A DNA stretch of 55,618 nucleotides from Thermodesulfobacteriota bacterium (GCA_041572575.1 JBFFSH010000004.1:1-55618), one strand, 5' to 3'; positions 19,500 through 48,456 are shown, numbered from the stretch's first letter. The notes: a model not told the origin generated them from the sequence alone. Numbers and translations are program-made.

Positions 19500-19676
19500 A
19501 TTCTCAAATGAAAAAATGTAAAACTTTTATGATAGTAAAAGTATAACACAGTCCGGCAGATTATTTTTGAAACAACGTTCAATTATCTACAATCATTCTA
19601 TGTACGAAAAATACATTTACACATCTTAAACATTGTATTATATTCTTGGTATAAATAAAATAAGAGGTGGGATTAA

Positions 19677-20279
19677 ATGTCAGCATTATTAGAAACTTTA
19701 GGACAGGTACTAAATAGTGGAGCAGTAGGTCAGATCAGCAGACAGATAGGTTCTGATGAAGGAACAACAGGTAACGCGTTGTCTGCTGCCCTTCCTGTAT
19801 TATTGGGGGCGTTATCAAGAAATGCAACCAGAGGAGATGGAGCAGAGAAACTTCTCGGGGCACTTTCTCGCGATCATGATGGCGGAATTCTCGATAACCT
19901 TGATGTATTCCTTCAAAATCCTGAATCCGGATCAGGAAGTGGTATCCTAAGACACATGCTTGGTGGCAGACAACCAAGAGTAGAGTCCAGCCTAAGCAGA
20001 TCAACAGGTCTTGATGCAGGTTCTATAGGAAAGCTCCTTGTTACACTTGCACCGATTATTATGGGAGCCTTGGGAAAATCACGCAGGCAAAATAACATGA
20101 ACTCAAGGGACCTTAGCGATATGCTAAATACAGAAAGAGCAAGCTTTGAAAGAAGCCAGCCCCAGGCATCAAATCCACTGAATCAGCTCCTTGATGTAGA
20201 CGGTGACGGAGACGTAGATATGGCAGACCTCATGAAAGGCGGTCTATCCAGTGTGCTGGGTAATATGCTTGGAAAGTAA
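19677..20279 (+). CDS. DUF937 family protein
   Basis: LPVLLGALSRNA, HDGGILDNL, GSGILRHMLG, C-terminal LDVDGDG. GAGGTGG RBS. Confidence 0.85.
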   Translation: MSALLETLGQVLNSGAVGQISRQIGSDEGTTGNALSAALPVLLGALSRNATRGDGAEKLLGALSRDHDGGILDNLDVFLQNPESGSGSGILRHMLGGRQPRVESSLSRSTGLDAGSIGKLLVTLAPIIMGALGKSRRQNNMNSRDLSDMLNTERASFERSQPQASNPLNQLLDVDGDGDVDMADLMKGGLSSVLGNMLGK

Positions 20280-20328
20280 TATTTTCTATAATATATAGAG
20301 ATTTCATTAAAGAAGTTTACTATTGAGA

Positions 20329-22275
20329 TTACTGGGGTCTTGTAACACCCAGTTTTCTCATTCGTGCTCTGAGAGTACTCGGATTTATATCCAATATAGA
20401 AGCGGCACCTTGTTCCCCATGCACTTTCCAATTGGTTTTTTCAAGGATTTTAACAATATGATTCCTTTCTATATTCTCTAGCCTCATTAAATTCAGGTTA
20501 TCCTGCAGTTCTATATTATCAATAAACTGATCTTCTATATGAAGTGTACTTCCCTTCGAAAGTACAATATTTCTCTCTAAAACATTTTGTAGTTCTCTAA
20601 TGTTGCCCGGCCAATTATATCTCAAAAGCTTATCGTGAGATTTAACAGAAATCCGGCGTATATTTTTACCTAATTTTTTCGAGTATTGCGTTATGAAATA
20701 ATTAACTAAAAGAGGTATATCGGATTTACGTTCTCTTAGTGGGAGCACAAGTACAGGCACAACATTTAATCTATAATACAGGTCGGCTCTGAATTTATTC
20801 TGCTTGATAGAAAGTTCGAGATTTCTGTTTGTGGCAGCTATCACTCTCACGTTTACTCTTTGAGTATTACTGCTGCCTACTCTCTCATATTCCCCTTCCT
20901 GAAGAATCCTAAGAAGCTTAACCTGCAAGTCCACAGGTAATTCAGAAATTTCATCTAAAAATATGGTCCCGCCATCGGCAATCTCAAACCTGCCAATTTT
21001 TTCCTTAACAGCCCCGGTAAAAGCGCCTTTTTCATGTCCGAATAACTCACTTTCAATAAGCGTAGGAGCTATGGCTCCACAATTAACTTTTACAAATGAC
21101 CTGGTATTTCTTGAGCTTAGGTTATGAATTGCCCTTGCTATTAGTTCTTTACCAGTTCCGGTTTCCCCCAATATAAGTACAGCAGATTCAGTCGGAGCTA
21201 CGATTTCAACTTTATTAAGAATTTTCTTAAGCTCAATATCTTCACCTATTATTTCTTCAAAATTGTCATTTAATCTAATCTCTTCTTTCAGGTAAATATT
21301 TTCATGATGCAGTTGGTCTTTTAATATCTCCAACTCTTCTAATGCATTCTTTAATTCCTGGGCCTGTTTTGCATTATTAACAGATACTTCAATTTCCTTA
21401 GATACTATTTCGAGCAGTCTCAACTCGTCTTCACTAAAAGCATCCATTTCCATCGCATGTAAATTTATACAACCAATAGTCTTACCACTCTGTTTTATAG
21501 GTAGTGACAGACAGCTTTTAGTGCCGAGCTTCAGTACTTCTGGGCTTGCCTGAATTTCTTTTTCTAGATCCTCACAATATTTAGCCTTACCGGTGGAAAT
21601 AATGTTCCAGACTATGCCATTTGGATATTTGATAATTTCAAATTGCTCCAAATACCAATTTGGAAGACCTGCATAGCCGCTTAGTACCGCATTATCCTGT
21701 TCTGCAAGATATATTTCTACACCGTTTATACTATCTAAATTTTCAAAGAGGGAATTTGAAGCATTTCTCAATACTTCTTTAAGGTCTATAGTCTTATGAA
21801 TATCCTTAAGAATGTTGTTTATTATTTCTTCATTTCTATTTTTTCTTGATAATTTTAAGAGGGTTTCCTGTAAAGTTTTCTCAGATTTTCTGGTTCTGGT
21901 TATATCCTTAAAAATACATACTCTTCCAATTACCTGATCATTTAACTTTTGAGGAGTCGTGATTTTTTCAAAAATTCGTCCATCTTTAAACTCCAGTATC
22001 TCAAAAGTATCCTTCAATCTGTTATTAACGAGTTCATTAAATTTCTCGTTGTAATCTTCTGAGTGCTTAACAAGAGTACCGAAATATTCAAAAATATCTG
22101 ATTTTTTCTTACTTTCTATTTTATCGCTGGTGATTTTCCAGACATCTAAGAACTTTTCATTGTAATAAAGAAAATTACCATCAGTATCTATGATCAAAAT
22201 TCCATCTGGCTCACTATCGATAGCCGACTTAAAAAAGTCGGTGTATTCAATTATATTTTTTTTGGTAACATTCAT
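20329..22275 (-). CDS. sigma54-dependent enhancer-binding protein, PAS-GAF-AAA+-HTH (FhlA/NifA-like)
   Basis: N-terminal PAS-like and GAF-like regions, GETGTGKE, intact [28 protein letters not shown]-terminal HTH. No receiver domain. Confidence 0.93.
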
Positions 22276-22286
22276 TATTTTTAATG

Positions 22287-22317
22287 GTCATATTTTACAA
22301 CTGCTGTCATATTTGAC
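22287..22317. promoter_or_regulatory. tandem candidate upstream activator sites
   Basis: GTCATATTTTAC (22287-22298) and GTCATATTTGAC (22306-22317): 11/12 identical, 19 bp apart, GTCA-N4-TGAC dyad. Confidence 0.55.
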
Positions 22318-22375
22318 TAATATTTTTGAATACCTATTCATCTTCATACCTAACGATTTCCAAAATATTCCATAA

Positions 22376-22388
22376 ATTCAGTGACTTA
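22376..22388 (+). promoter_or_regulatory. candidate IHF site
   Basis: ATTCAGTGACTTA is one mismatch from WATCARNNNNTTR, preceded by an AT-rich tract and lying between the candidate UAS and the -24/-12 box. Confidence 0.4.
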
Positions 22389-22405
22389 AGACAGGTTTGC
22401 AGATA

Positions 22406-22421
22406 TGGCATACCCCATGCA
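22406..22421 (+). promoter_or_regulatory. sigma54 -24/-12 promoter
   Basis: TGGCATACCCCATGCA: GG and GC separated by exactly 10 nt, 36 bp upstream of the ATG with an AAGGAGGT RBS, next to a sigma54 activator gene. Confidence 0.8.
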
Positions 22422-22457
22422 TAAAGTATATTAACTTTTATTAAGGAGGTAAATAGG

Positions 22458-23201
22458 ATGAAAGTATTATATTTAGTATTTTCTCTATTACTCATATGTA
22501 TATCTTATTCAAAACCAGCAGTTTCTGAGCTGCCTGATCCGGGAATGGAAATTGATGATAGGACGGCTTTGGTAGTAACAGATCCACAAAATGATTTTCT
22601 TAGCCCCAAAGGAGTTACATGGGGTGTAGTAGGGGAAAGCGTTACAGAAAATAAGACAGTTCCTAATATTGAAAGCCTGCTAAAAATCGCCAAGGCAACC
22701 AATATTCCGGTTTTTGTATCCCCTCATTACTACTATCCTACGGATAAAGGCTGGATGTTTGAGGGAGCGCTTGAAGTTCTGATGCATAAAATCAATATGT
22801 TTGACAGAGCCGGGCCTTTATCTCTCGAAGGATTTGAGGGTTCGGGAGCGGACTTTCTCGAGCCTTACAAGCCCTACATTGAAGATGGAAAAACAGTAGT
22901 AACAAGTCCGCACAAGGTTTACGGACCCGAGGCAAATGACCTTGTATTGCAGTTAAGGAAGAGAAAGATTGATAAGGTAATACTTGCAGGTATGTCTGCA
23001 AACCTTTGTGTGGAAGCTCATATGAGAGAACTTCTCGAACAGGGTTTTGAAGTTACGGTTGTAACAGACGGCACAGCTGCTGCAAAGGTTCCTGAGGGTG
23101 ATGGTTATAAGGCAGCCATGGTCAACTTCAGATTTATGGCAAATGACCTTTGGACAACAAAAGAGGCCAATGAGAAAATGAAAAGCTTTGCTAAGAAATA
23201 A
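22458..23201 (+). CDS. exported cysteine hydrolase (isochorismatase superfamily)
   Basis: Signal peptide. Catalytic Asp (VVTDPQNDF), Lys (SPHKVYG) and Cys (GMSANLCVE). Confidence 0.88.
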   Translation: MKVLYLVFSLLLICISYSKPAVSELPDPGMEIDDRTALVVTDPQNDFLSPKGVTWGVVGESVTENKTVPNIESLLKIAKATNIPVFVSPHYYYPTDKGWMFEGALEVLMHKINMFDRAGPLSLEGFEGSGADFLEPYKPYIEDGKTVVTSPHKVYGPEANDLVLQLRKRKIDKVILAGMSANLCVEAHMRELLEQGFEVTVVTDGTAAAKVPEGDGYKAAMVNFRFMANDLWTTKEANEKMKSFAKK

Positions 23202-23279
23202 TCCTGGCAATACATATTTGCTTATTCTCTATGGAAATGATTTAGCTGTAAATATATATTAAAGGAGAGTTTTATATAA

Positions 23280-24479
23280 ATGAAAATCACAAAACTTTAT
23301 AAACTATTATTATTTTCTTTGCTGTGTATGTTCATCTCCCCCAAAATATCTAATGCACAAGCCATTGTAGTCCAGTTTCTTGGAACATCAGACGTAAGTG
23401 TACAGATGATAGACACCGATGGTGACGGAGAAAATGACGTGGAGTCTAACTGCTATGAAAACGACCTGGTTGATCCAACCAGCGGAGAAGTAGTTGGCAC
23501 TGGTCTTGATTGCCTCAGAGATATAGTAGCTAATGAGGATGGAAGTGTAACTCTTATAAGCAATATATTCTTTGATTTCGATGGATTCGGGCTTATTTCT
23601 TCTGAAGGTACAACCACGGTTCAGCCATTACTGACTCAATCTGCTCTGGATGCGGGGCTTACAAACGGCACCGGTTCCTTTTCAGATGAGGATACAATAA
23701 TGTTTGGCACAGGGGTATTTGAAGATGCTACGGGTAATGTACGTTTATCCGGCCTTGTTGACCTTAGCAGTTTTCCAAATGAAGCATTTTTTAACTGTGT
23801 TTTTGAAATAGCAGTGGATGGCGATCCTGCCCCAAATATCACAGGAAGCGGTGATGAGGCTATAGTAGTCAAATTTCTGGGAACAGACTCCGGACAGGAT
23901 ACAATGATCGACACCGATGGTGATGATGTAAATGATGTGGAATCTACATGCTTTGAAAATGATCTTGTAGACCCAAATACCGGTAATGTTGTAGGGCATG
24001 GAATTGACTGTCTAAGAGATATAACACCGGTTGAAGATACAAATGGTCTTACTCTTACAAGCAACATATTCTTCACATTTGATAGTGGAGGGCTAAATGG
24101 TCTGATATCCTCAGAAGGTACAACCACTGTGCAGCCCCTGGTTACAGATTCTGCATTGGATGCGGGTCTAACTCATCAAACCCAGTCCTTTAGAGATAAT
24201 GATACTATCAAATTTGGGACTGGTGATTTTGCAGGCGCTACTGGAAACGCCAGACTATCGGGACTTGTGGATTTAACTACTTTTCCAGACGATACCTTTT
24301 TCAATTGCATGTTTATTATTAAGGCAAACAGGATTGTTGGTGTTAAAAGCGGAAGCGGATGTGCTCTGGCATCAAATAATGATTATGCACAAAGCGGTGC
24401 TATTAATTATTTAATGATGTTATTGGTTCCGTTGTTGATAATTGGTATCAGAAAAAGATATTTTGCAAGTAATTCTTAG
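23280..24479 (+). CDS. exported protein with two tandem ~150-aa repeats and a C-terminal membrane anchor
   Basis: Signal peptide, two homologous domains, then SGSGC-spacer-hydrophobic helix-RKR tail. AAGGAG RBS. Confidence 0.85.
   Translation: MKITKLYKLLLFSLLCMFISPKISNAQAIVVQFLGTSDVSVQMIDTDGDGENDVESNCYENDLVDPTSGEVVGTGLDCLRDIVANEDGSVTLISNIFFDFDGFGLISSEGTTTVQPLLTQSALDAGLTNGTGSFSDEDTIMFGTGVFEDATGNVRLSGLVDLSSFPNEAFFNCVFEIAVDGDPAPNITGSGDEAIVVKFLGTDSGQDTMIDTDGDDVNDVESTCFENDLVDPNTGNVVGHGIDCLRDITPVEDTNGLTLTSNIFFTFDSGGLNGLISSEGTTTVQPLVTDSALDAGLTHQTQSFRDNDTIKFGTGDFAGATGNARLSGLVDLTTFPDDTFFNCMFIIKANRIVGVKSGSGCALASNNDYAQSGAINYLMMLLVPLLIIGIRKRYFASNS
23361..24320 (+). repeat. intragenic tandem domain duplication (23361-23810 and 23859-24320)
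   Basis: Shared blocks AIVV.FLGT, MIDTDGD..NDVES.C.ENDLVDP, DCLRDI, GLISSEGTTTVQPL, SALDAGLT, FGTG.F..ATGN.RLSGLVDL..FP...FFNC.F.I. Also visible at DNA level (GACACCGATGGTGA; GAAGGTACAACCAC). Confidence 0.95.
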
Positions 24480-24485
24480 AGTGAT

Positions 24486-24521
24486 TTAAACCCACCTCAA
24501 TATTATTTGAGGTGGGTTTAA
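24486..24521. terminator. bidirectional intrinsic terminator
   Basis: Perfect 15-bp inverted repeat TTAAACCCACCTCAA / TTGAGGTGGGTTTAA between convergent genes. Confidence 0.8.
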
Positions 24522-24534
24522 TACTATCTTGTTT

Positions 24535-25023
24535 TTAATCTCTCCATTTACTGAATACATAATCAGATTCTTTTTGAGACTGATGGCAGCTAAAGCAGCT
24601 TTGCCCTCCGTCTGCAACAAGGCGCTCTGTTTTACTGTCCCCTGCAAATCCTTCGAATCCCCAGCCTCCTGTGGATGCATATGCGGCTGAATCTTTTTGC
24701 ATAATACCAATTAGTTTTCTATCTGATTCCTGAATTGTCTTATCGGCCTGATTATAATTTAAAAGATCAAACACAATAACAGCACCATCCTGAAAAGTGC
24801 CTGATCTATAACCCTCAATTGCTTGTTCGTTGCCATAGATATGGTGTATACCCTGAAACGGATTTTCAAGCGGATGTCCAGGCTCTATAACCATTGTTTT
24901 TACATGTGTCCAGCTCCGGTAACCATCCGGATATGCAATCTGTGAGCTTTGTCCAACGGTTTTCATACACCCAACAGCTCCAACGACTAAAACAAATACA
25001 CCAAAGACGATAGATTTTTTCAT
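24535..25023 (-). CDS. cytochrome P460/c'-beta family lipoprotein (c'-beta type)
   Basis: Start moved to ATG 25023 (AAGGAGG RBS). Lipobox AVG-C. YPDGYRSW, F.DGAVIVF, GGWGF, C-terminal heme motif CFSCH, DYVFS. Confidence 0.85.
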   Translation of the reverse strand: MKKSIVFGVFVLVVGAVGCMKTVGQSSQIAYPDGYRSWTHVKTMVIEPGHPLENPFQGIHHIYGNEQAIEGYRSGTFQDGAVIVFDLLNYNQADKTIQESDRKLIGIMQKDSAAYASTGGWGFEGFAGDSKTERLVADGGQSCFSCHQSQKESDYVFSKWRD

Positions 25024-25048
25024 TAAAAGCCTCCTTATAAGCATTATA

Positions 25049-25069
25049 TTGGTATCGACTCTATACTAT
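25049..25069. promoter_or_regulatory. candidate MarR operator 1
   Basis: TTGGTATCGA-C-TCTATACTAT, 17/20 arm matches to the dyad ATAGTATCGA-N-TCGATACTAT inferred from both sites. Confidence 0.6.
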
Positions 25070-25096
25070 ATATCAAATATAAAACTACTTGTCAAG

Positions 25097-25117
25097 ATAG
25101 TTTTGCCACGATACTAT
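25097..25117. promoter_or_regulatory. candidate MarR operator 2
   Basis: ATAGTTTTGC-C-ACGATACTAT, 16/20 arm matches to the same dyad, ending 9 bp before the MarR start. Confidence 0.55.
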
Positions 25118-25126
25118 TATAAAGAT

Positions 25127-25696
25127 ATGAAACAATCGCAAATTCTGGAACTAATCGAGAGAATCGGAAATCTACTGAGAGCAGAGCAGAGGATAATAGG
25201 CTCTGCACAACAGCTTCAGCCTGTACACATTCAGGTTCTTGAATACCTAAACCGGTGCAATAAATACAGCAACACACCCGCAGGAGTCGTTAAATATTTT
25301 GGTATTACAAAGGGAACAGTATCACAATCTATAAATGTTCTTGAAAAAAGATCACTTGTAGAAAAGAAAACTGATCTTGCAGACAAAAGGTCTGTGCACA
25401 TTATTATTACTGCAAAGGGGAAAAAATTGCTAAAAACCCTTTTAATAAAAAGAAGTTCTTTTGAATTAGCAAAAAACACAGATAGCAAAATCAATAACTT
25501 GGTAGAAACTGAACTTAAAAACATATTAGCTAATTTGCAAAAACATAACTCTTATAACACCTTCGGAGTATGCAATACATGTAGACATCTAATCACAGAG
25601 CAAAATGGATTTAGATGTGGATTAACTAAAGAAGTGTTGTCATCCACTGATACAACTAAGATATGCCATGAGCATGAATACTCTGAGGCAGTCTAA
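25127..25696 (+). CDS. MarR-family winged-helix regulator with C-terminal C-x2-C-x11-C-x15-C motif
   Basis: ITKGTVSQSINVLEKRSLVEKK.D..DKRSVHIIITAKG wHTH, then FGVCNTC...RCGLT...ICHEH. Start placed at MKQSQ because the upstream in-frame extension runs through the operators. Confidence 0.85.
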   Translation: MKQSQILELIERIGNLLRAEQRIIGSAQQLQPVHIQVLEYLNRCNKYSNTPAGVVKYFGITKGTVSQSINVLEKRSLVEKKTDLADKRSVHIIITAKGKKLLKTLLIKRSSFELAKNTDSKINNLVETELKNILANLQKHNSYNTFGVCNTCRHLITEQNGFRCGLTKEVLSSTDTTKICHEHEYSEAV

Positions 25697-26127
25697 TCAG
25701 TTTTTTTATCGAATATCTCTGATTTTGCTAACCAAACAAATAAAAATCCCACAGTCAAACTAAGCAATGGTCCAAGATATTTCTGCCATAGGGAATTTAT
25801 AACGGCAATATTCGGATCAGCATTTAAATAAATAATTTCTATGGGCTCACCTTTTTCAGGAGCAAACAGATATCCATAAGGCCTGGTGTTTTTAAATGTA
25901 TGCGAATTACCACTTTGATCTTTAAATTCAACCGTCACATAAAACCTTGCAGAGCTTCCGCCAGACCTATGTCTTTCTATTCTTTTAACTTCCCCTTTTA
26001 CAGCAATCCCTTTAGAGGATAGCTGAGCGGAGTTATATAGATCGACCCCGCCTGTATATAGCAAGTATAGACCAGCGGCAGCTGAAACAATAATTATCAG
26101 CCAAGATTTGAGTCTGGCCTTCATCAA
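25693..26127 (-). CDS. DUF3592-like membrane protein
   Basis: TM helix, beta-rich middle (VKGEV...VTVEF.D..G...IEIIY...DP..A), second TM helix. Confidence 0.75.
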   Translation of the reverse strand: MMKARLKSWLIIIVSAAAGLYLLYTGGVDLYNSAQLSSKGIAVKGEVKRIERHRSGGSSARFYVTVEFKDQSGNSHTFKNTRPYGYLFAPEKGEPIEIIYLNADPNIAVINSLWQKYLGPLLSLTVGFLFVWLAKSEIFDKKTD

Positions 26128-46360: not shown

Positions 46361-47258
46361 ACATCTCGAGAATTGCCTTTCCGGCATGAAGTTTATTTTC
46401 TGCCTGCTGATAAATTACGGAATTCTTATCATGTATTATCTCATCAGTAATCTCCTGGCCCCTGTGAGCAGGAAGGCAGTGCATAATAAGCGTGCTGTTT
46501 TTTGCGTTTGATAATAGATTGCTGTTTAGCTGATAATCTTTAAACATTTCCAGTTTCTTGTATTTTTGATCTTCCTGACCCATACTGACCCACACATCGG
46601 TGTAGACCACATCAGCATCTTTTACGGCTTGCACAGGATCTCGAATTAATTCGATCCTGGGATCATAAGTGTCTGCAATACGAAGCATATCCTTATCAGG
46701 CTCATATCCTTTAGGGGTAGAAATTACAAGTTCAAATCCTAATATACAGGCAGCACCAATAAGGGAGTTTGTTATATTATTTCCATCACCCAAATAAACA
46801 AACTTCATATTATTTATATCAACACCATTTTCTTTAAGAGTATATAGATCAGATACAATCTGACAGGGATGCTCCAGATCGGTAAGCGCATTAATAACCG
46901 GAATGTCTGAAGCCTCGGCAAATTCTTCAATCATTGACTGATCAAAGGTTCTAATAATAATGCCGCTTAAATAAGACGTCAGTACTTTTGCCGTGTCTTC
47001 TATAGATTCACCACGGTTTAGCTGCAGATCAGATGAGCTCATAAATATGACATCTCCTCCAAGCTCGTTTATAGCAACCTCAAATGATATTCTTGTACGC
47101 GTGGACTGTTTTTCAAAAATCAGGCCAACAGATTTATTTATAAGACTTTGCGGAAAATCCCTGGATATTCTTGAAGACTTAAGCTCTTTTGTACGCTCAA
47201 ACAATAATTCAAACTCTTCTTTTCTCAGGTCAAATATACTTAAAAAATGTCTAGGCAT
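46350..47258 (-). CDS. argF: ornithine carbamoyltransferase
   Basis: KQSTRTR, HPCQ, DVWVSMG, HCLP. Confidence 0.96.
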
Positions 47259-48456
47259 TTGAAACCTCTTCCAATACAGTTCTAATTATACCAAGTGCAA
47301 TATCTATCTCTTTTTTACCTGCAATTAGCGGGGGCAGAATTCTTATATTTTTTTGTTCAGTTATGATTGTGAGAAGCCCCCTTTTATATAATTTTTTAAC
47401 AACCTCTGATGCATATTTATTATTTGCAAGCTCTATGCCAATAATAAACCCGCTGCCTCTCACTTCTTTTATGATATTGCTGTTATGTGATTGTACCTCT
47501 TTTAGTTTTGAAATGAAGTAAGAGCCCAGTGTTTGCACATTATCAAGCAGACCATCATCCATTATGGTGCTTATAACGCTATAACCAACGCTCATGGCAA
47601 GTGGGTTTCCTCCCATTGTAGAACCATGAGAGCCCGGGGTCAGATATTTTGCATGCTTGTTTTTTGCAAGCAGCGCCCCGCAGGCAAGCCCGCCTCCAAG
47701 CGCTTTTGCAAGCGTCATAAGGTCTGGCTTAAAACCAAGCTGTTCATAGGCAAACATGCTTCCGGTTCTTCCAACACCAACCTGAATCTCGTCTAATATG
47801 AATAAGATATTGTTTTGATTACATAGTTTTCGGACTTTTTTCAAATACCCATTTGGTGGAATTATTACTCCATTTTCACCCTGTATGGGTTCGAGTATTA
47901 CGGCGCATACTTTTTTGTCACCGGCTGCTTTTTGAAGCTGGGAGAAATCACCATAATCTACAAATTTCACACCAGGCACCATCGGGTTAAAGCCCTGCCT
48001 GTACTTCTTGTGTCCCGTTATGCTAAGCGACCCGTATGACCTTCCATGAAATCCGCCTTTAGTTGATACGATTTTATACCTGCCCCCGTTTTCATTTCCC
48101 CATTTCCTTGCAAGTTTTATCGCGGCTTCGTTTGCTTCGGCTCCGCTGTTGCAAAAAAACACCCGGTCTGCAAATGAATTTTCAACGAGAAGCCTTGCAA
48201 GTTTTCCCTGTTCTTCGGTATAAAAGAGGTTTGAGCTGTGAACGATCTTATTTAACTGAGAAGATATTGCTTTTTTAACTTTCGGATGATTATGACCAAG
48301 GTTATTGACTGCAATACCCGTAGTAAAGTCCAGATATTTATTGCCCTCGAAATCCCAGACCCAGCATCCTTTGGCTTTTTGCAGTGCTATGGGGTATCTT
48401 CCGTAATTTTTAAATCCATAGCTGTCCAGAGCAGCTATTACATCAGAAGATTTCAT
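47251..48456 (-). CDS. argD: acetylornithine aminotransferase
   Basis: [38 protein letters not shown]. Located between argB and argF. Confidence 0.94.

What the first reader, a model, noticed from the sequence alone, without database searches (positions are those of the whole stretch)
20329..24479. Self-contained sigma54 module: PAS-GAF activator driving an exported cysteine hydrolase and a surface-anchored tandem-barrel protein
Seen: a receiver-less PAS-GAF-AAA+(GAFTGA)-HTH activator is head-to-head with a correctly spaced -24/-12 promoter. Two co-directional genes follow, 78 bp apart and both with signal peptides, and a 15-bp hairpin closes the unit. Known: GAF/PAS-type enhancer-binding proteins usually sense small molecules directly and often activate the adjacent divergent operon. 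Inference: this is a ligand-inducible extracytoplasmic system in which the hydrolase and the barrel protein act on the same unknown molecule. I know of no characterised pathway with this gene pair. It is the best candidate here for an undescribed system.
Basis: partly seen in the sequence, partly recalled or inferred. Interest (0 to 1): 0.85.

Follow-up and report, generated by a model that had tools for sequence, protein, structure and literature searches.

The report
Sigma-54 unit: exported hydrolase plus double barrel
A sediment bacterium (Candidatus Dadabacteria) carries a sensor-activator next to a sigma-54 promoter that appears to drive an exported cysteine hydrolase and a membrane-tethered protein made of two small-molecule-binding barrels; these two exported proteins also sit side by side in at least six other bacterial lineages, so the pair is real and undescribed, but its substrate is unknown.

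Summary
I confirmed:
- a receiver-less PAS-GAF-AAA+(GAFTGA)-HTH_8 activator at 20329-22275(-);
- a canonically spaced -24/-12 box at 22406-22421;
- an exported isochorismatase-like cysteine hydrolase at 22458-23201;
- a 399-aa signal-peptide / two-barrel / C-terminal-helix protein 78 bp downstream at 23280-24479;
- a 15-bp hairpin at 24486-24521.

The unit recurs in three Dadabacteria variants, and all three keep the GG/GC promoter dinucleotides. All three genes show dN/dS of 0.05-0.08. A close relative lacks the activator, the promoter box and the barrel gene together.

Each barrel repeat models at pLDDT 96 as an allene-oxide-cyclase/dirigent-like barrel. It belongs to a small family without a Pfam model (493 representatives among 1.84 billion).

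- Of 18 barrel-gene contexts sampled (17 lineages), 7 have the hydrolase as immediate neighbour, in both gene orders and under different regulators.
- Only 1 of the 80 best hydrolase loci carries a barrel gene.
- The hydrolase family is very large, 60-84% identical across 18 phyla, and usually sits beside Cupin_6-AraC regulators and redox/detoxification-type genes.

So the barrel is an optional partner of a widespread exported hydrolase. Substrate, inducer and sigma-54 dependence remain inferred.

The parts
20329..22275 (-). Sigma-54 enhancer-binding protein, 648 aa: PAS (23-126), GAF (164-298), AAA+ sigma-54 interaction domain with GAFTGA (342-508), lid, HTH_8 (599-642); no receiver domain
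   Evidence: Pfam. NCBIfam best hits NifA/FhlA/NorR all fall below their curated cut-offs. dN/dS is 0.079 against L096.
22287..22317 (+). Two 12-nt direct repeats, GTCATATTTTAC and GTCATATTTGAC, 19 nt apart and about 90-120 nt upstream of the -24 element; candidate activator-binding (enhancer) sites
   Evidence: the repeat finder family D2. The block CAACTGCTGT.A.AT.TGAC is conserved in L001 and L096. Function is inferred.
22292..22319 (-). Sigma-70-like promoter match (TAGTCA-16-TAAAAT) ahead of the activator gene, overlapping the repeat boxes; possible autoregulation
   Evidence: Consensus scan, (9 of 12 positions). Weak and tentative.
22406..22421 (+). -24/-12 sigma-54 promoter TGGCATACCCCATGCA
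   Evidence: 2 matches in the window, 0.20 expected. GG/GC and their spacing are conserved in L096 (TGGCACACCTCATGCA) and L001 (TGGTACACCCTTTGCA). Absent upstream of the hydrolase in L003, which lacks the activator.
22443..22449 (+). Shine-Dalgarno AAGGAGG of the hydrolase gene
   Evidence: Sequence.
22458..23201 (+). Exported isochorismatase-like cysteine hydrolase, 247 aa: signal peptide about 1-23, mature start ELPDPG, triad Asp42/Lys153/Cys184, family-specific insert SPHYYYP...
   Evidence: Pfam PF00857, 98.5 bits against a cut-off of 27. Alignments to PDB 3kl2 and 6xix. Motif positions and signal-peptide survey. More than 8000 homologue clusters.
23202..23279 (+). 78-bp intergenic gap with SD AAAGGAG and no terminator-like structure
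   Evidence: z = -0.03.
23280..24479 (+). 399-aa exported double-barrel protein: signal peptide 1-26; barrel 1 residues 27-180 (23358-23819); barrel 2 residues 194-350 (23859-24329); flexible linker with conserved GSGC(A/S)(L/I)AS; C-terminal helix 373-397 followed by RKR
   Evidence: Repeat alignment. AF2 single repeat pLDDT 96.1, pTM 0.90. Full-length model. Foldseek. No Pfam or NCBIfam hit.
24486..24521 (.). 15-bp hairpin (TTAAACCCACCTCAA / TTGAGGTGGGTTTAA, loop TATTAT); likely bidirectional terminator shared with the convergent P460-fold gene
   Evidence: -26.6 kcal/mol, z = -6.95. The same hairpin follows the barrel gene in L001 and L096, and follows the hydrolase gene directly in L003.

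Best explanation
This is a sigma-54-dependent, activator-controlled two-gene operon in a Candidatus Dadabacteria chromosome.

Proposed steps:
1. A cytoplasmic signal acts on the PAS and/or GAF domain of the receiver-less activator (inferred).
2. The activator binds the repeat boxes about 100 nt upstream and remodels sigma-54 RNA polymerase at TGGCAT-N5-ATGCA (inferred from anatomy and comparative co-variation).
3. One transcript runs through both genes to the conserved hairpin. The anatomy supports this: no terminator lies between the genes, and in a relative that lacks the barrel gene the same hairpin follows the hydrolase directly.
4. Both products are exported by Sec.
5. The hydrolase is a soluble periplasmic Asp-Lys-Cys amidohydrolase-type enzyme from a very widespread, very conserved exported family. 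In other phyla this family is wired to AraC-type or sigma-54 regulators and sits among redox and detoxification-type genes.
6. The second product is held at the cytoplasmic membrane by a C-terminal helix. It presents two allene-oxide-cyclase/dirigent-like barrels to the periplasm.
7. The barrel protein is an optional partner of the hydrolase. It either binds and hands over a poorly soluble small-molecule substrate, or captures or converts the product.

The most likely biological role is extracytoplasmic processing or clean-up of an amide- or ester-bearing hydrophobic or aromatic small molecule. The substrate and the inducer are unknown.
For: Anatomy: domains, promoter, spacing, ribosome-binding sites and hairpin are as described.

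Conservation:
- Three sequence variants of the whole unit exist (window; L096/L097; L001/L098). Protein identities to the window are 75-93% (activator), 91-94% (hydrolase) and 88-94% (barrel protein).
- The GG/GC promoter dinucleotides and their spacing are kept while neighbouring bases vary.
- dN/dS is 0.05-0.08 for all three genes.

Co-variation: L003/L004 share the DnaE-DUF2103-AMMECR1 synteny and a 92%-identical hydrolase. They lack the activator, the -24/-12 box and the barrel gene, and the same hairpin follows the hydrolase directly.

Fold:
- The AF2 repeat model has pLDDT 96.1.
- Foldseek PDB top hits are PloI4, Tsn15, allene oxide cyclase 2, pyocyanin demethylase and AbmU/AbnU (probability about 1.0, E from 5e-4, TM 0.4-0.5).
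- 10 of 113 family members give weak Pfam Dirigent hits.

Functional link:
- The same hydrolase family (64-75% identity to the window's) is the immediate neighbour of a barrel gene in Dadabacteria, L002, Latescibacteria L005/L006, Bacteriovoracaceae L043, Poribacteria L102, L103 and Betaproteobacteria L105.
- Both gene orders occur, with gaps of 19-329 bp.
- The paired barrel genes are scattered over the family tree.

A second sigma-54 case: in L005 a response-regulator-type activator and a TGGCATGTCCTTTGCG box precede barrel-then-hydrolase.

Export: 109 of 111 hydrolase homologues have N-terminal hydrophobic signals. One barrel-family member is fused to peptidoglycan-binding domains.
Against: - No expression data. 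The 'RNA' runs that contain the locus show flat depth on both strands and contigs up to 86 kb, so they contain DNA and say nothing about transcription.
- rpoN could not be looked for, because the genome search was shut.
- A weak sigma-70-like match lies in the 78-bp gap (23232-23260), and the gap is 154-160 bp in L001/L098. The barrel gene may therefore have its own promoter.
- Only 1 of the 80 best hydrolase loci has a barrel gene, and 11 sampled barrel contexts have no hydrolase nearby. Neither protein needs the other in general.
- Structural similarity to known barrels is fold-level only (TM about 0.5, 13-18% identity).
- No substrate evidence of any kind.
Confidence: 0.55

Rival explanations
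1. Nitrogen scavenging. The unit is a nitrogen-limitation response in which the exported amidohydrolase releases ammonia from an extracellular amide or ureide (biuret-, ureidoacrylate- or nicotinamide-like). The activator's GAF domain would sense a nitrogen-status metabolite, as in NifA-type activators.
For: - The best NCBIfam similarities of the hydrolase are all ammonia-releasing amidases: BiuH, PRK11440 hydrolase, PncA and RutB. The nearest solved structures include cysteine hydrolases of the biuret/triuret hydrolase group (6xix, 6xjm).
- The activator's GAF-AAA+ region scores highest against NifA (394.6 bits).
- Sigma-54 is classically linked to nitrogen assimilation (established knowledge).
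Against: - All these matches are far below the curated cut-offs (48 bits against 370 for BiuH; 394.6 against 528.85 for NifA).
- No transporter or nitrogen-assimilation gene is part of the unit.
- In 87 loci the recurring neighbours are Cupin_6-AraC, AhpD-like CMD, thioredoxin, SDR, alpha/beta hydrolase, DUF1348, PNPOx and OsmC, not nitrogen genes.
- This reading gives the hydrophobic-ligand barrels no obvious role.
Confidence: 0.15
2. No functional coupling. The barrel gene is an independent envelope protein that landed between the hydrolase gene and its terminator. It has its own promoter, and its function is unrelated to the hydrolase.
For: - Most hydrolase loci lack it (79 of 80).
- 11 sampled barrel contexts lack the hydrolase.
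- A weak sigma-70-like match lies in the gap.
- The gap is 154-160 bp in L001/L098 and 329 bp in L102.
Against: - Immediate adjacency to the same hydrolase family occurs in 7 lineages, in both orders, with gaps of 19-64 bp in five of them, and scattered over the barrel tree.
- My estimate: if one particular gene in a genome of about 3000 genes is one of two neighbours with probability below 1e-3, seven hits in 18 contexts are far beyond chance (inference).
- In Dadabacteria the barrel gene co-varies with the activator and the promoter.
Confidence: 0.15
3. The -24/-12 box is fortuitous or not used. The hydrolase would be expressed from a sigma-70 promoter, and the divergent activator would control a target elsewhere.
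For: - Several sigma-70-like matches lie in the AT-rich intergenic region.
- Most family members in other phyla have no sigma-54 box: a strict motif was found in only 2 of 86 upstream regions.
Against: - 0.20 matches are expected per window, yet one sits 37 nt before the ATG and faces away from an activator gene.
- GG/GC and spacing are conserved in three variants while flanking bases change.
- The box is missing exactly where the activator is missing.
- An independent activator + box + barrel + hydrolase arrangement exists in Latescibacteria.
Confidence: 0.1

Closest known systems
Receiver-less sigma-54 enhancer-binding proteins with ligand-sensing N-terminal domains that control an adjacent operon (NorR, FhlA, NifA; XylR/DmpR in design)
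   Same: AAA+ domain with GAFTGA, a Fis-type HTH, an N-terminal sensory module (GAF, as in NifA/FhlA/NorR) and a nearby -24/-12 promoter with upstream repeat boxes.
   Different: - Scores are below every curated equivalog cut-off: NifA 394.6 against 528.85, FhlA 381 against 830, NorR 365 against 476.
- It has an extra PAS domain in front of the GAF domain.
- The regulated genes (exported hydrolase and barrel protein) are unlike any characterised regulon of these activators.
Isochorismatase-like cysteine hydrolases of the amidase type (biuret hydrolase BiuH, triuret-hydrolase-group cysteine hydrolases 6xix/6xj4, PncA, RutB, YcaC; PDB 3kl2)
   Same: Pfam PF00857 fold and an Asp-Lys-Cys triad in conserved motifs (DPQNDF, SPHK, NLCVE).
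   Different: - Only E about 1e-10 to the nearest structures, and far below all equivalog cut-offs.
- Carries a Sec signal peptide, whereas characterised members are cytoplasmic (established knowledge).
- Has a roughly 55-residue family-specific insert.
- Shows 60-84% identity across 18 phyla.
Allene-oxide-cyclase/dirigent-like beta-barrels: PloI4, Tsn15, AbmU/AbnU pericyclases, plant AOC2, pyocyanin demethylase PodA (5k21), dirigent protein PsPTS2
   Same: A predicted antiparallel beta-barrel of about 150 residues. Foldseek probability is about 1.0 for the top 30 chains. A C-terminal 'GTG-F-x-A-x-G-x-x-RLSG' block resembles the dirigent signature, with weak Pfam Dirigent hits in 10 of 113 members.
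   Different: - TM-scores are only 0.4-0.5 and identity 13-18%.
- No Pfam model reaches threshold.
- Family-specific features: three conserved Cys, a DxDGDG loop, invariant Arg-Leu-Ser-Gly, export signals, and here a tandem duplication with a membrane tether.
- No catalytic activity can be assigned.
AraC- or sigma-54-controlled clusters around the same exported hydrolase in other phyla
   Same: The same hydrolase family, and sometimes the same regulatory logic: PAS-AAA+-HTH_8 activators sit directly upstream of the hydrolase in Cytophagia loci L050, L073 and L082.
   Different: Those clusters usually lack the barrel gene. Instead they carry CMD/AhpD-like, thioredoxin, SDR, alpha/beta hydrolase, DUF1348, PNPOx or OsmC genes. 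None is experimentally characterised, as far as my searches show.

Membership tests
Bacterial sigma-54 enhancer-binding protein (bEBP) | AAA+ sigma-54 interaction domain with GAFTGA loop and Walker A/B motifs | tested here: met
   PF00158, E 9e-72, residues 342-508. [14 protein letters not shown] and FLDEISE are in the translation.
Bacterial sigma-54 enhancer-binding protein (bEBP) | C-terminal Fis-type HTH DNA-binding domain | tested here: met
   PF02954 HTH_8, residues 599-642, 29.6 bits against a cut-off of 22.
Bacterial sigma-54 enhancer-binding protein (bEBP) | A cognate -24/-12 promoter and sigma-54 (rpoN) in the genome | tested here: inconclusive
   The promoter motif is present and conserved. 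rpoN could not be searched because the genome tools were shut.
NifA / FhlA / NorR equivalogs | Score above the NCBIfam curated cut-off | tested here: not met
   394.6 against 528.85; 381.1 against 830; 364.6 against 476.
Isochorismatase-like hydrolase superfamily (PF00857) | Pfam model above the gathering score | tested here: met
   98.5 bits against 27; residues 36-234 cover profile positions 1-173 of 175.
Isochorismatase-like hydrolase superfamily (PF00857) | Catalytic Asp-Lys-Cys triad | tested here: met
   Asp42 (DPQNDF), Lys153 (SPHK) and Cys184 (NLCVE) align with the corresponding motifs of 3kl2 and 6xix. Activity was not tested.
Biuret hydrolase BiuH, PncA, RutB, YcaC equivalogs | Score above the NCBIfam curated cut-off | tested here: not met
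   48 against 370; 30.2 against 174; 28.5 against 378; 21.1 against 310.
Dirigent / allene-oxide-cyclase-like barrel | Barrel fold comparable with solved members | tested here: met
   AF2 pLDDT 96.1. Foldseek hits PloI4, Tsn15, AOC2, PodA and AbmU with probability about 1.0, E from 5e-4 and TM 0.4-0.5.
Dirigent / allene-oxide-cyclase-like barrel | Sequence membership in Pfam Dirigent (PF03018) or another curated family | tested here: not met
   The window protein has no Pfam or NCBIfam hit. Only 10 of 113 relatives give sub-threshold Dirigent hits, best E 0.0015. A profile search against PDB sequences found nothing.
C-terminal protein-sorting signals (PEP-CTERM, GlyGly-CTERM, MYXO-CTERM, Synerg-CTERM, LPXTG) | Match to a curated sorting-domain model | tested here: not met
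   The C-terminal 46-50 residues scanned against NCBIfam at E up to 10 gave only Synerg-CTERM at E 6.7. No other ORF with this tail was found in the window or in related Dadabacteria loci.
Intrinsic (rho-independent) terminator | GC-rich hairpin followed by a U-tract | tested here: inconclusive
   The hairpin is strong and conserved. The downstream tract UUUAAUACUAUCUUGUUUUU is interrupted, and the consensus scan did not list it.

The most novel reading that the evidence does not exclude
The barrel family would be a new family of periplasmic small-molecule-converting enzymes, not just binders. Its conserved Asp, His, Arg-Leu-Ser-Gly and three Cys are reminiscent of catalytic allene-oxide-cyclase/PodA-type barrels.

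Together with the ultra-conserved exported cysteine hydrolase it would form a two-step extracytoplasmic pathway. That pathway would inactivate or remodel a widespread redox-active or signalling metabolite in sediments, for example an aromatic or heterocyclic amide. Different lineages would have plugged the pair into whichever sensor they use: a PAS-GAF sigma-54 activator here; response-regulator-type activators, AraC or hybrid kinases elsewhere.
Probability: 0.2. Interest if true: 0.7.

Novelty: new variant of a known kind. Interest (0 to 1): 0.5.

Why it matters
Three points would interest specialists.

1. An exported isochorismatase-like hydrolase is conserved at 60-84% identity across at least 18 phyla, yet has no known substrate. 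Conservation that tight in an extracytoplasmic enzyme points to a common, specific environmental or envelope molecule.
2. There is a small, unannotated family of exported allene-oxide-cyclase/dirigent-like barrels (about 500 sequence clusters). About 40% of sampled members sit next to that hydrolase. This gives the first functional handle on both families.
3. The Dadabacteria version offers a compact test bed: one activator, one promoter and two genes. It could be moved into a laboratory host to find the inducer and hence the substrate.

The regulatory design itself is ordinary.

Tried and rejected
- Transcript evidence: four runs labelled transcriptomic hold the locus. They show flat depth over both strands and intergenic DNA, with contigs up to 86 kb, so they are uninformative.
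- The search for related loci with the broad barrel alignments failed for lack of a conserved 7-10-column stretch. A narrower alignment worked.
- Known C-terminal sorting signals were rejected.
- A fusion between barrel and hydrolase was looked for among longer family members and not found. PG_binding_1 and NHL fusions were found instead.
- A second sigma-54 box in the 78-bp gap (TGGCAATACATATTTGC) was rejected, because the GG-GC spacing is 2 nt too long (sequence).
- A shared sensor between the Dadabacteria activator and the Cytophagia PAS activators was rejected. The PAS similarity is only generic: 27-30% identity, E 1e-5 to 1e-9.
- I considered the cytochrome-P460-fold and MarR genes downstream as part of the unit. 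I rejected this because they are absent at that position in L001.
- Literature searches for the gene pair or for an exported isochorismatase-like hydrolase returned nothing relevant.

Full report
**1. What is in the sequence**

The window is chromosomal, about 38% G+C, and full of housekeeping genes: DnaE, LepA, FtsY, RF, arginine biosynthesis and UvrC. The nearest public relatives of the proteins in the finding are annotated Candidatus Dadabacteria. The stretch is held almost word for word in some twenty marine, estuarine, sediment and soil metagenomes.

- **Activator.** ORF 20329-22275(-) encodes 648 aa with PAS, GAF, Sigma54_activat (E 9e-72), AAA_lid_14 and HTH_8, and no receiver domain. 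GAFTGA and the Walker motifs are visible. It is not an equivalog of NifA, FhlA or NorR; all scores fall below the cut-offs.
- **Promoter.** TGGCATACCCCATGCA lies at 22406-22421, 37 nt before the ATG at 22458. Its GG/GC spacing is the canonical one. The degenerate pattern is expected 0.20 times per window and occurs twice.
- **Enhancer candidates.** About 90-120 nt upstream lie two 12-nt direct repeats, GTCATATTT(T/G)AC.
- **Genes.** The hydrolase gene (22458-23201) and the 399-aa gene (23280-24479) each follow a Shine-Dalgarno sequence and are 78 bp apart. That gap has no significant structure (z = -0.03).
- **Hairpin.** The 15-bp hairpin at 24486-24521 folds at -26.6 kcal/mol, z = -6.95.

**2. 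The two products**

*Hydrolase.* It matches Pfam Isochorismatase at 98.5 bits against a cut-off of 27. It keeps Asp42, Lys153 and Cys184 in the motifs DPQNDF, SPHK and NLCVE, and these align with solved cysteine hydrolases 3kl2 and 6xix at E about 1e-10. It falls far below every NCBIfam equivalog cut-off for BiuH, PncA, RutB and YcaC. Its N-terminus is a typical Sec signal. Of 111 full-length homologues, 109 have a variable hydrophobic N-terminus followed by the conserved start ELPDPGMEID, and none has a twin-arginine motif.

*Double-barrel protein.* The 399-aa protein has no Pfam or NCBIfam match. It contains two repeats of about 155 aa.

- A single repeat, modelled on an alignment of 113 relatives, gives pLDDT 96.1 and pTM 0.90, all beta.
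- Foldseek against the PDB returns the allene-oxide-cyclase/dirigent-like barrel group: PloI4, Tsn15, AOC2, pyocyanin demethylase, AbmU, AbnU, LucK and a dirigent protein. Probability is about 1.0, but TM is only 0.4-0.5 and identity 13-18%.
- Ten of 113 relatives give sub-threshold Pfam Dirigent hits.
- The full-length model reads, in order: signal helix (3-18), barrel (27-180), linker, barrel (194-350, pLDDT above 90), disordered linker, C-terminal helix (373-397) followed by RKR.
- The tail matches no curated sorting signal.

I therefore read the protein as tethered to the cytoplasmic membrane and facing the periplasm. 'Surface' exposure is not shown.

**3. Is the unit conserved?**

Yes, within a Dadabacteria clade. 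L096/L097 and L001/L098 carry the same activator / promoter / hydrolase / double-barrel / hairpin block.

| Gene | Identity to window, L096/L097 | Identity to window, L001/L098 |
|---|---|---|
| Activator | 93% | 75.5% |
| Hydrolase | 94% | 91% |
| Barrel protein | 94% | 88% |

The promoter reads TGGCACACCTCATGCA in L096 and TGGTACACCCTTTGCA in L001/L098. GG, GC and their spacing are kept while other positions change. All three genes are under strong purifying selection, with dN/dS of 0.05-0.08.

The most informative comparison is with L003/L004. They share the same DnaE-DUF2103-CYTH-AMMECR1 synteny and carry a 92%-identical hydrolase. They have no activator, no -24/-12 box and no barrel gene. 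The same hairpin, and the same sequence downstream of it, follow the hydrolase directly.

So activator, promoter and barrel gene come and go together. The barrel gene lies inside the hydrolase's transcription unit, upstream of its conserved terminator. This is the best available (comparative) support for sigma-54/activator control and for co-transcription. It is not an expression measurement.

**4. Do the two exported genes co-occur elsewhere?**

The answer depends on which side one starts from.

*From the hydrolase side.* The family is very large. More than 8000 clusters were scored, and the top 120 all have E below 1e-115. A GTDB scan gave 199 species genomes. The best 80 loci are 60-84% identical and span 18 named phyla, led by Bacteroidota (27), Gemmatimonadota (16) and Pseudomonadota (10).

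- Only one of these 80 loci (L043, Bacteriovoracaceae) has a barrel gene within 6 kb.
- Across 87 loci (these 80 plus the window and the six loci fetched earlier), the commonest neighbour is a Cupin_6-AraC regulator (47 loci).
- Other recurring neighbours are CMD/AhpD-like, thioredoxin, SDR, alpha/beta hydrolase, DUF1348, PNPOx, OsmC and a receiver-thioredoxin-reductase-like gene.
- A sigma-54 activator lies within 6 kb in five of the 80 loci. In three Cytophagia loci it is a PAS-AAA+-HTH_8 protein directly upstream of the hydrolase.

*From the barrel side.* The family is small. A full HMMER pass over 1.84 billion representatives finds 493 at E up to 1e-3 and 217 at E up to 1e-30. Members are exported single-domain proteins of about 190 aa. 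A few are tandem versions, and a few are fused to peptidoglycan-binding or NHL domains.

The same hydrolase family (64-75% identity to the window's) is the immediately adjacent gene in seven lineages:

| Lineage / locus | Gene order | Gap (bp) | Nearby regulator |
|---|---|---|---|
| Dadabacteria (window; L001/L098) | hydrolase then barrel | 78 (window); 154-160 (L001/L098) | PAS-GAF sigma-54 activator |
| L002, high-GC organism | barrel then hydrolase | 42 | divergent AraC |
| Latescibacteria L005/L006 | barrel then hydrolase | 42 | response-regulator-type activator, TGGCATGTCCTTTGCG box |
| Bacteriovoracaceae L043 | hydrolase then barrel | 19 | none seen |
| Poribacteria L102 | barrel then hydrolase | 329 | none seen |
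| L103 | hydrolase then barrel | 32 | hybrid kinase with AraC HTH, plus a receiver protein |
| Betaproteobacteria L105 | hydrolase then barrel | 64 | divergent Cupin_6 regulator |

Sources.

Eleven other contexts have no hydrolase within about 5 kb: L087-L092, L094, L095, L099, L100 and L104 (L094 and L095 appear to carry the same gene). The paired genes are scattered over the barrel tree, so pairing has been gained or lost repeatedly.

Chance adjacency to one particular gene has a probability below about 1e-3 per genome (my estimate). Seven hits in 18 sampled contexts are therefore far beyond chance. I conclude that the link is real, and that the barrel is an optional accessory of a widespread hydrolase, not half of an obligate pair.

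**5. Mechanism**

- *Shown by sequence and comparison:* the anatomy, export signals, the fold class of the barrels, the catalytic triad, conservation, co-variation and recurrent adjacency.
- *Inferred:* a cytoplasmic ligand acts on PAS/GAF; the activator binds the repeat boxes and opens the sigma-54 complex; one mRNA carries both genes; the hydrolase acts in the periplasm on an amide- or ester-type bond; the tethered barrels bind the same poorly soluble small molecule (substrate hand-over, or product capture or conversion).
- *Context:* the company the hydrolase keeps in other phyla (AraC regulators, thiol and peroxide-type redox proteins, SDR, alpha/beta hydrolase) points to stress or xenobiotic clean-up rather than nutrient acquisition. 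A nitrogen-scavenging amidase reading cannot be excluded.

**6. Comparison with known systems, and novelty**

The regulatory design is the standard receiver-less activator plus adjacent sigma-54 operon. The hydrolase is a member of the isochorismatase-like superfamily but of no characterised family. The barrel resembles allene-oxide-cyclase/dirigent/PodA-type barrels in fold only.

Full-text searches found no description of the pair or of an exported member of this hydrolase family. First-stage notes from this scan, on this window and on other genomes, describe exported isochorismatase-like hydrolases under PAS-type sigma-54 activators. I treat them as leads; my neighbour survey agrees with them.

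I rate the finding as a new variant of a known kind. The wiring is ordinary. The hydrolase/barrel pair is uncharacterised but real and recurrent. The substrate is unknown.

**7. Limits**

- No usable RNA evidence.
- No genome-wide search, so rpoN and non-adjacent co-occurrence were not tested.
- No signal-peptide predictor was available.
- The context sample on the barrel side is small (18 contexts, 17 lineages).

Noticed in passing
window 47425-47440 (-): A second canonical -24/-12-like match, TGGCATAGAGCTTGCA. It lies inside the class-III aminotransferase (argD-like) ORF 47251-48456(-), 167 nt upstream of the ornithine/aspartate carbamoyltransferase ORF that starts at 47258. It could be an internal sigma-54 promoter for the arginine genes, or chance.
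   Followed up: partly
window 24535-26127: A cytochrome-P460-fold gene (24535-25044, -), a MarR-family gene with a Cys-rich C-terminal extension (25049-25696, +) and a 144-aa membrane protein sit between the unit and the conserved 104-aa/MaoC/SelO genes. They are absent at this position in L001, so they are not part of the unit.
   Followed up: partly
loci L007-L086 (hydrolase homologues): The exported isochorismatase-like hydrolase is 60-84% identical over 18 named phyla, which is unusually tight for an extracytoplasmic enzyme of unknown substrate. A Cupin_6-AraC regulator is its commonest neighbour (47 of 87 loci).
   Followed up: partly
L050:2197-2420, L073:1960-2190, L082:5808-6030: In Cytophagia a PAS-AAA+-HTH_8 activator lies directly upstream of the hydrolase. 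The spacer carries palindromes of the type GCCAATATATTGGC and a GGCA(C/T)-N5-TTGT motif with sigma-54 spacing but a non-canonical -12 (GT instead of GC).
   Followed up: partly
L002:2919-3737: The hydrolase next to the single-barrel gene reads in three different frames over its length. This is either assembly frameshifts or a pseudogene.
   Followed up: no
runs X25-X28 laid on window 19600-25800: Runs labelled TRANSCRIPTOMIC RNA-Seq give contigs up to 86 kb and flat depth over both strands and intergenic DNA. They evidently contain genomic DNA.
   Followed up: yes
window 23340-23370 and 23900-23930 (protein residues about 45-53 and 212-220): Each barrel repeat carries a D-x-D-G-D-(G/D) loop (DTDGDGEND, DTDGDDVND) resembling calcium-binding DxDxDG motifs. 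Each also has three conserved cysteines per repeat. Weak TSP_3, FG-GAP and EF-hand hits in a few relatives point the same way.
   Followed up: partly
proteins P0246-P0251, P0254, P0257, P0362, P0388: Other members of the barrel family are independent tandem duplications, or are fused to two PG_binding_1 domains, to an NHL propeller, or to long acidic low-complexity tails. These features are consistent with an envelope location.
   Followed up: partly
L104:87-6174 and L103:1-5642: Two loci share a Reg_prop/Y_Y_Y hybrid histidine kinase with an AraC HTH, plus a stand-alone receiver, upstream of a barrel gene. One locus has the hydrolase. In the other the barrel gene is followed by an unrelated 176-aa exported protein and no hydrolase is present.
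   Followed up: no
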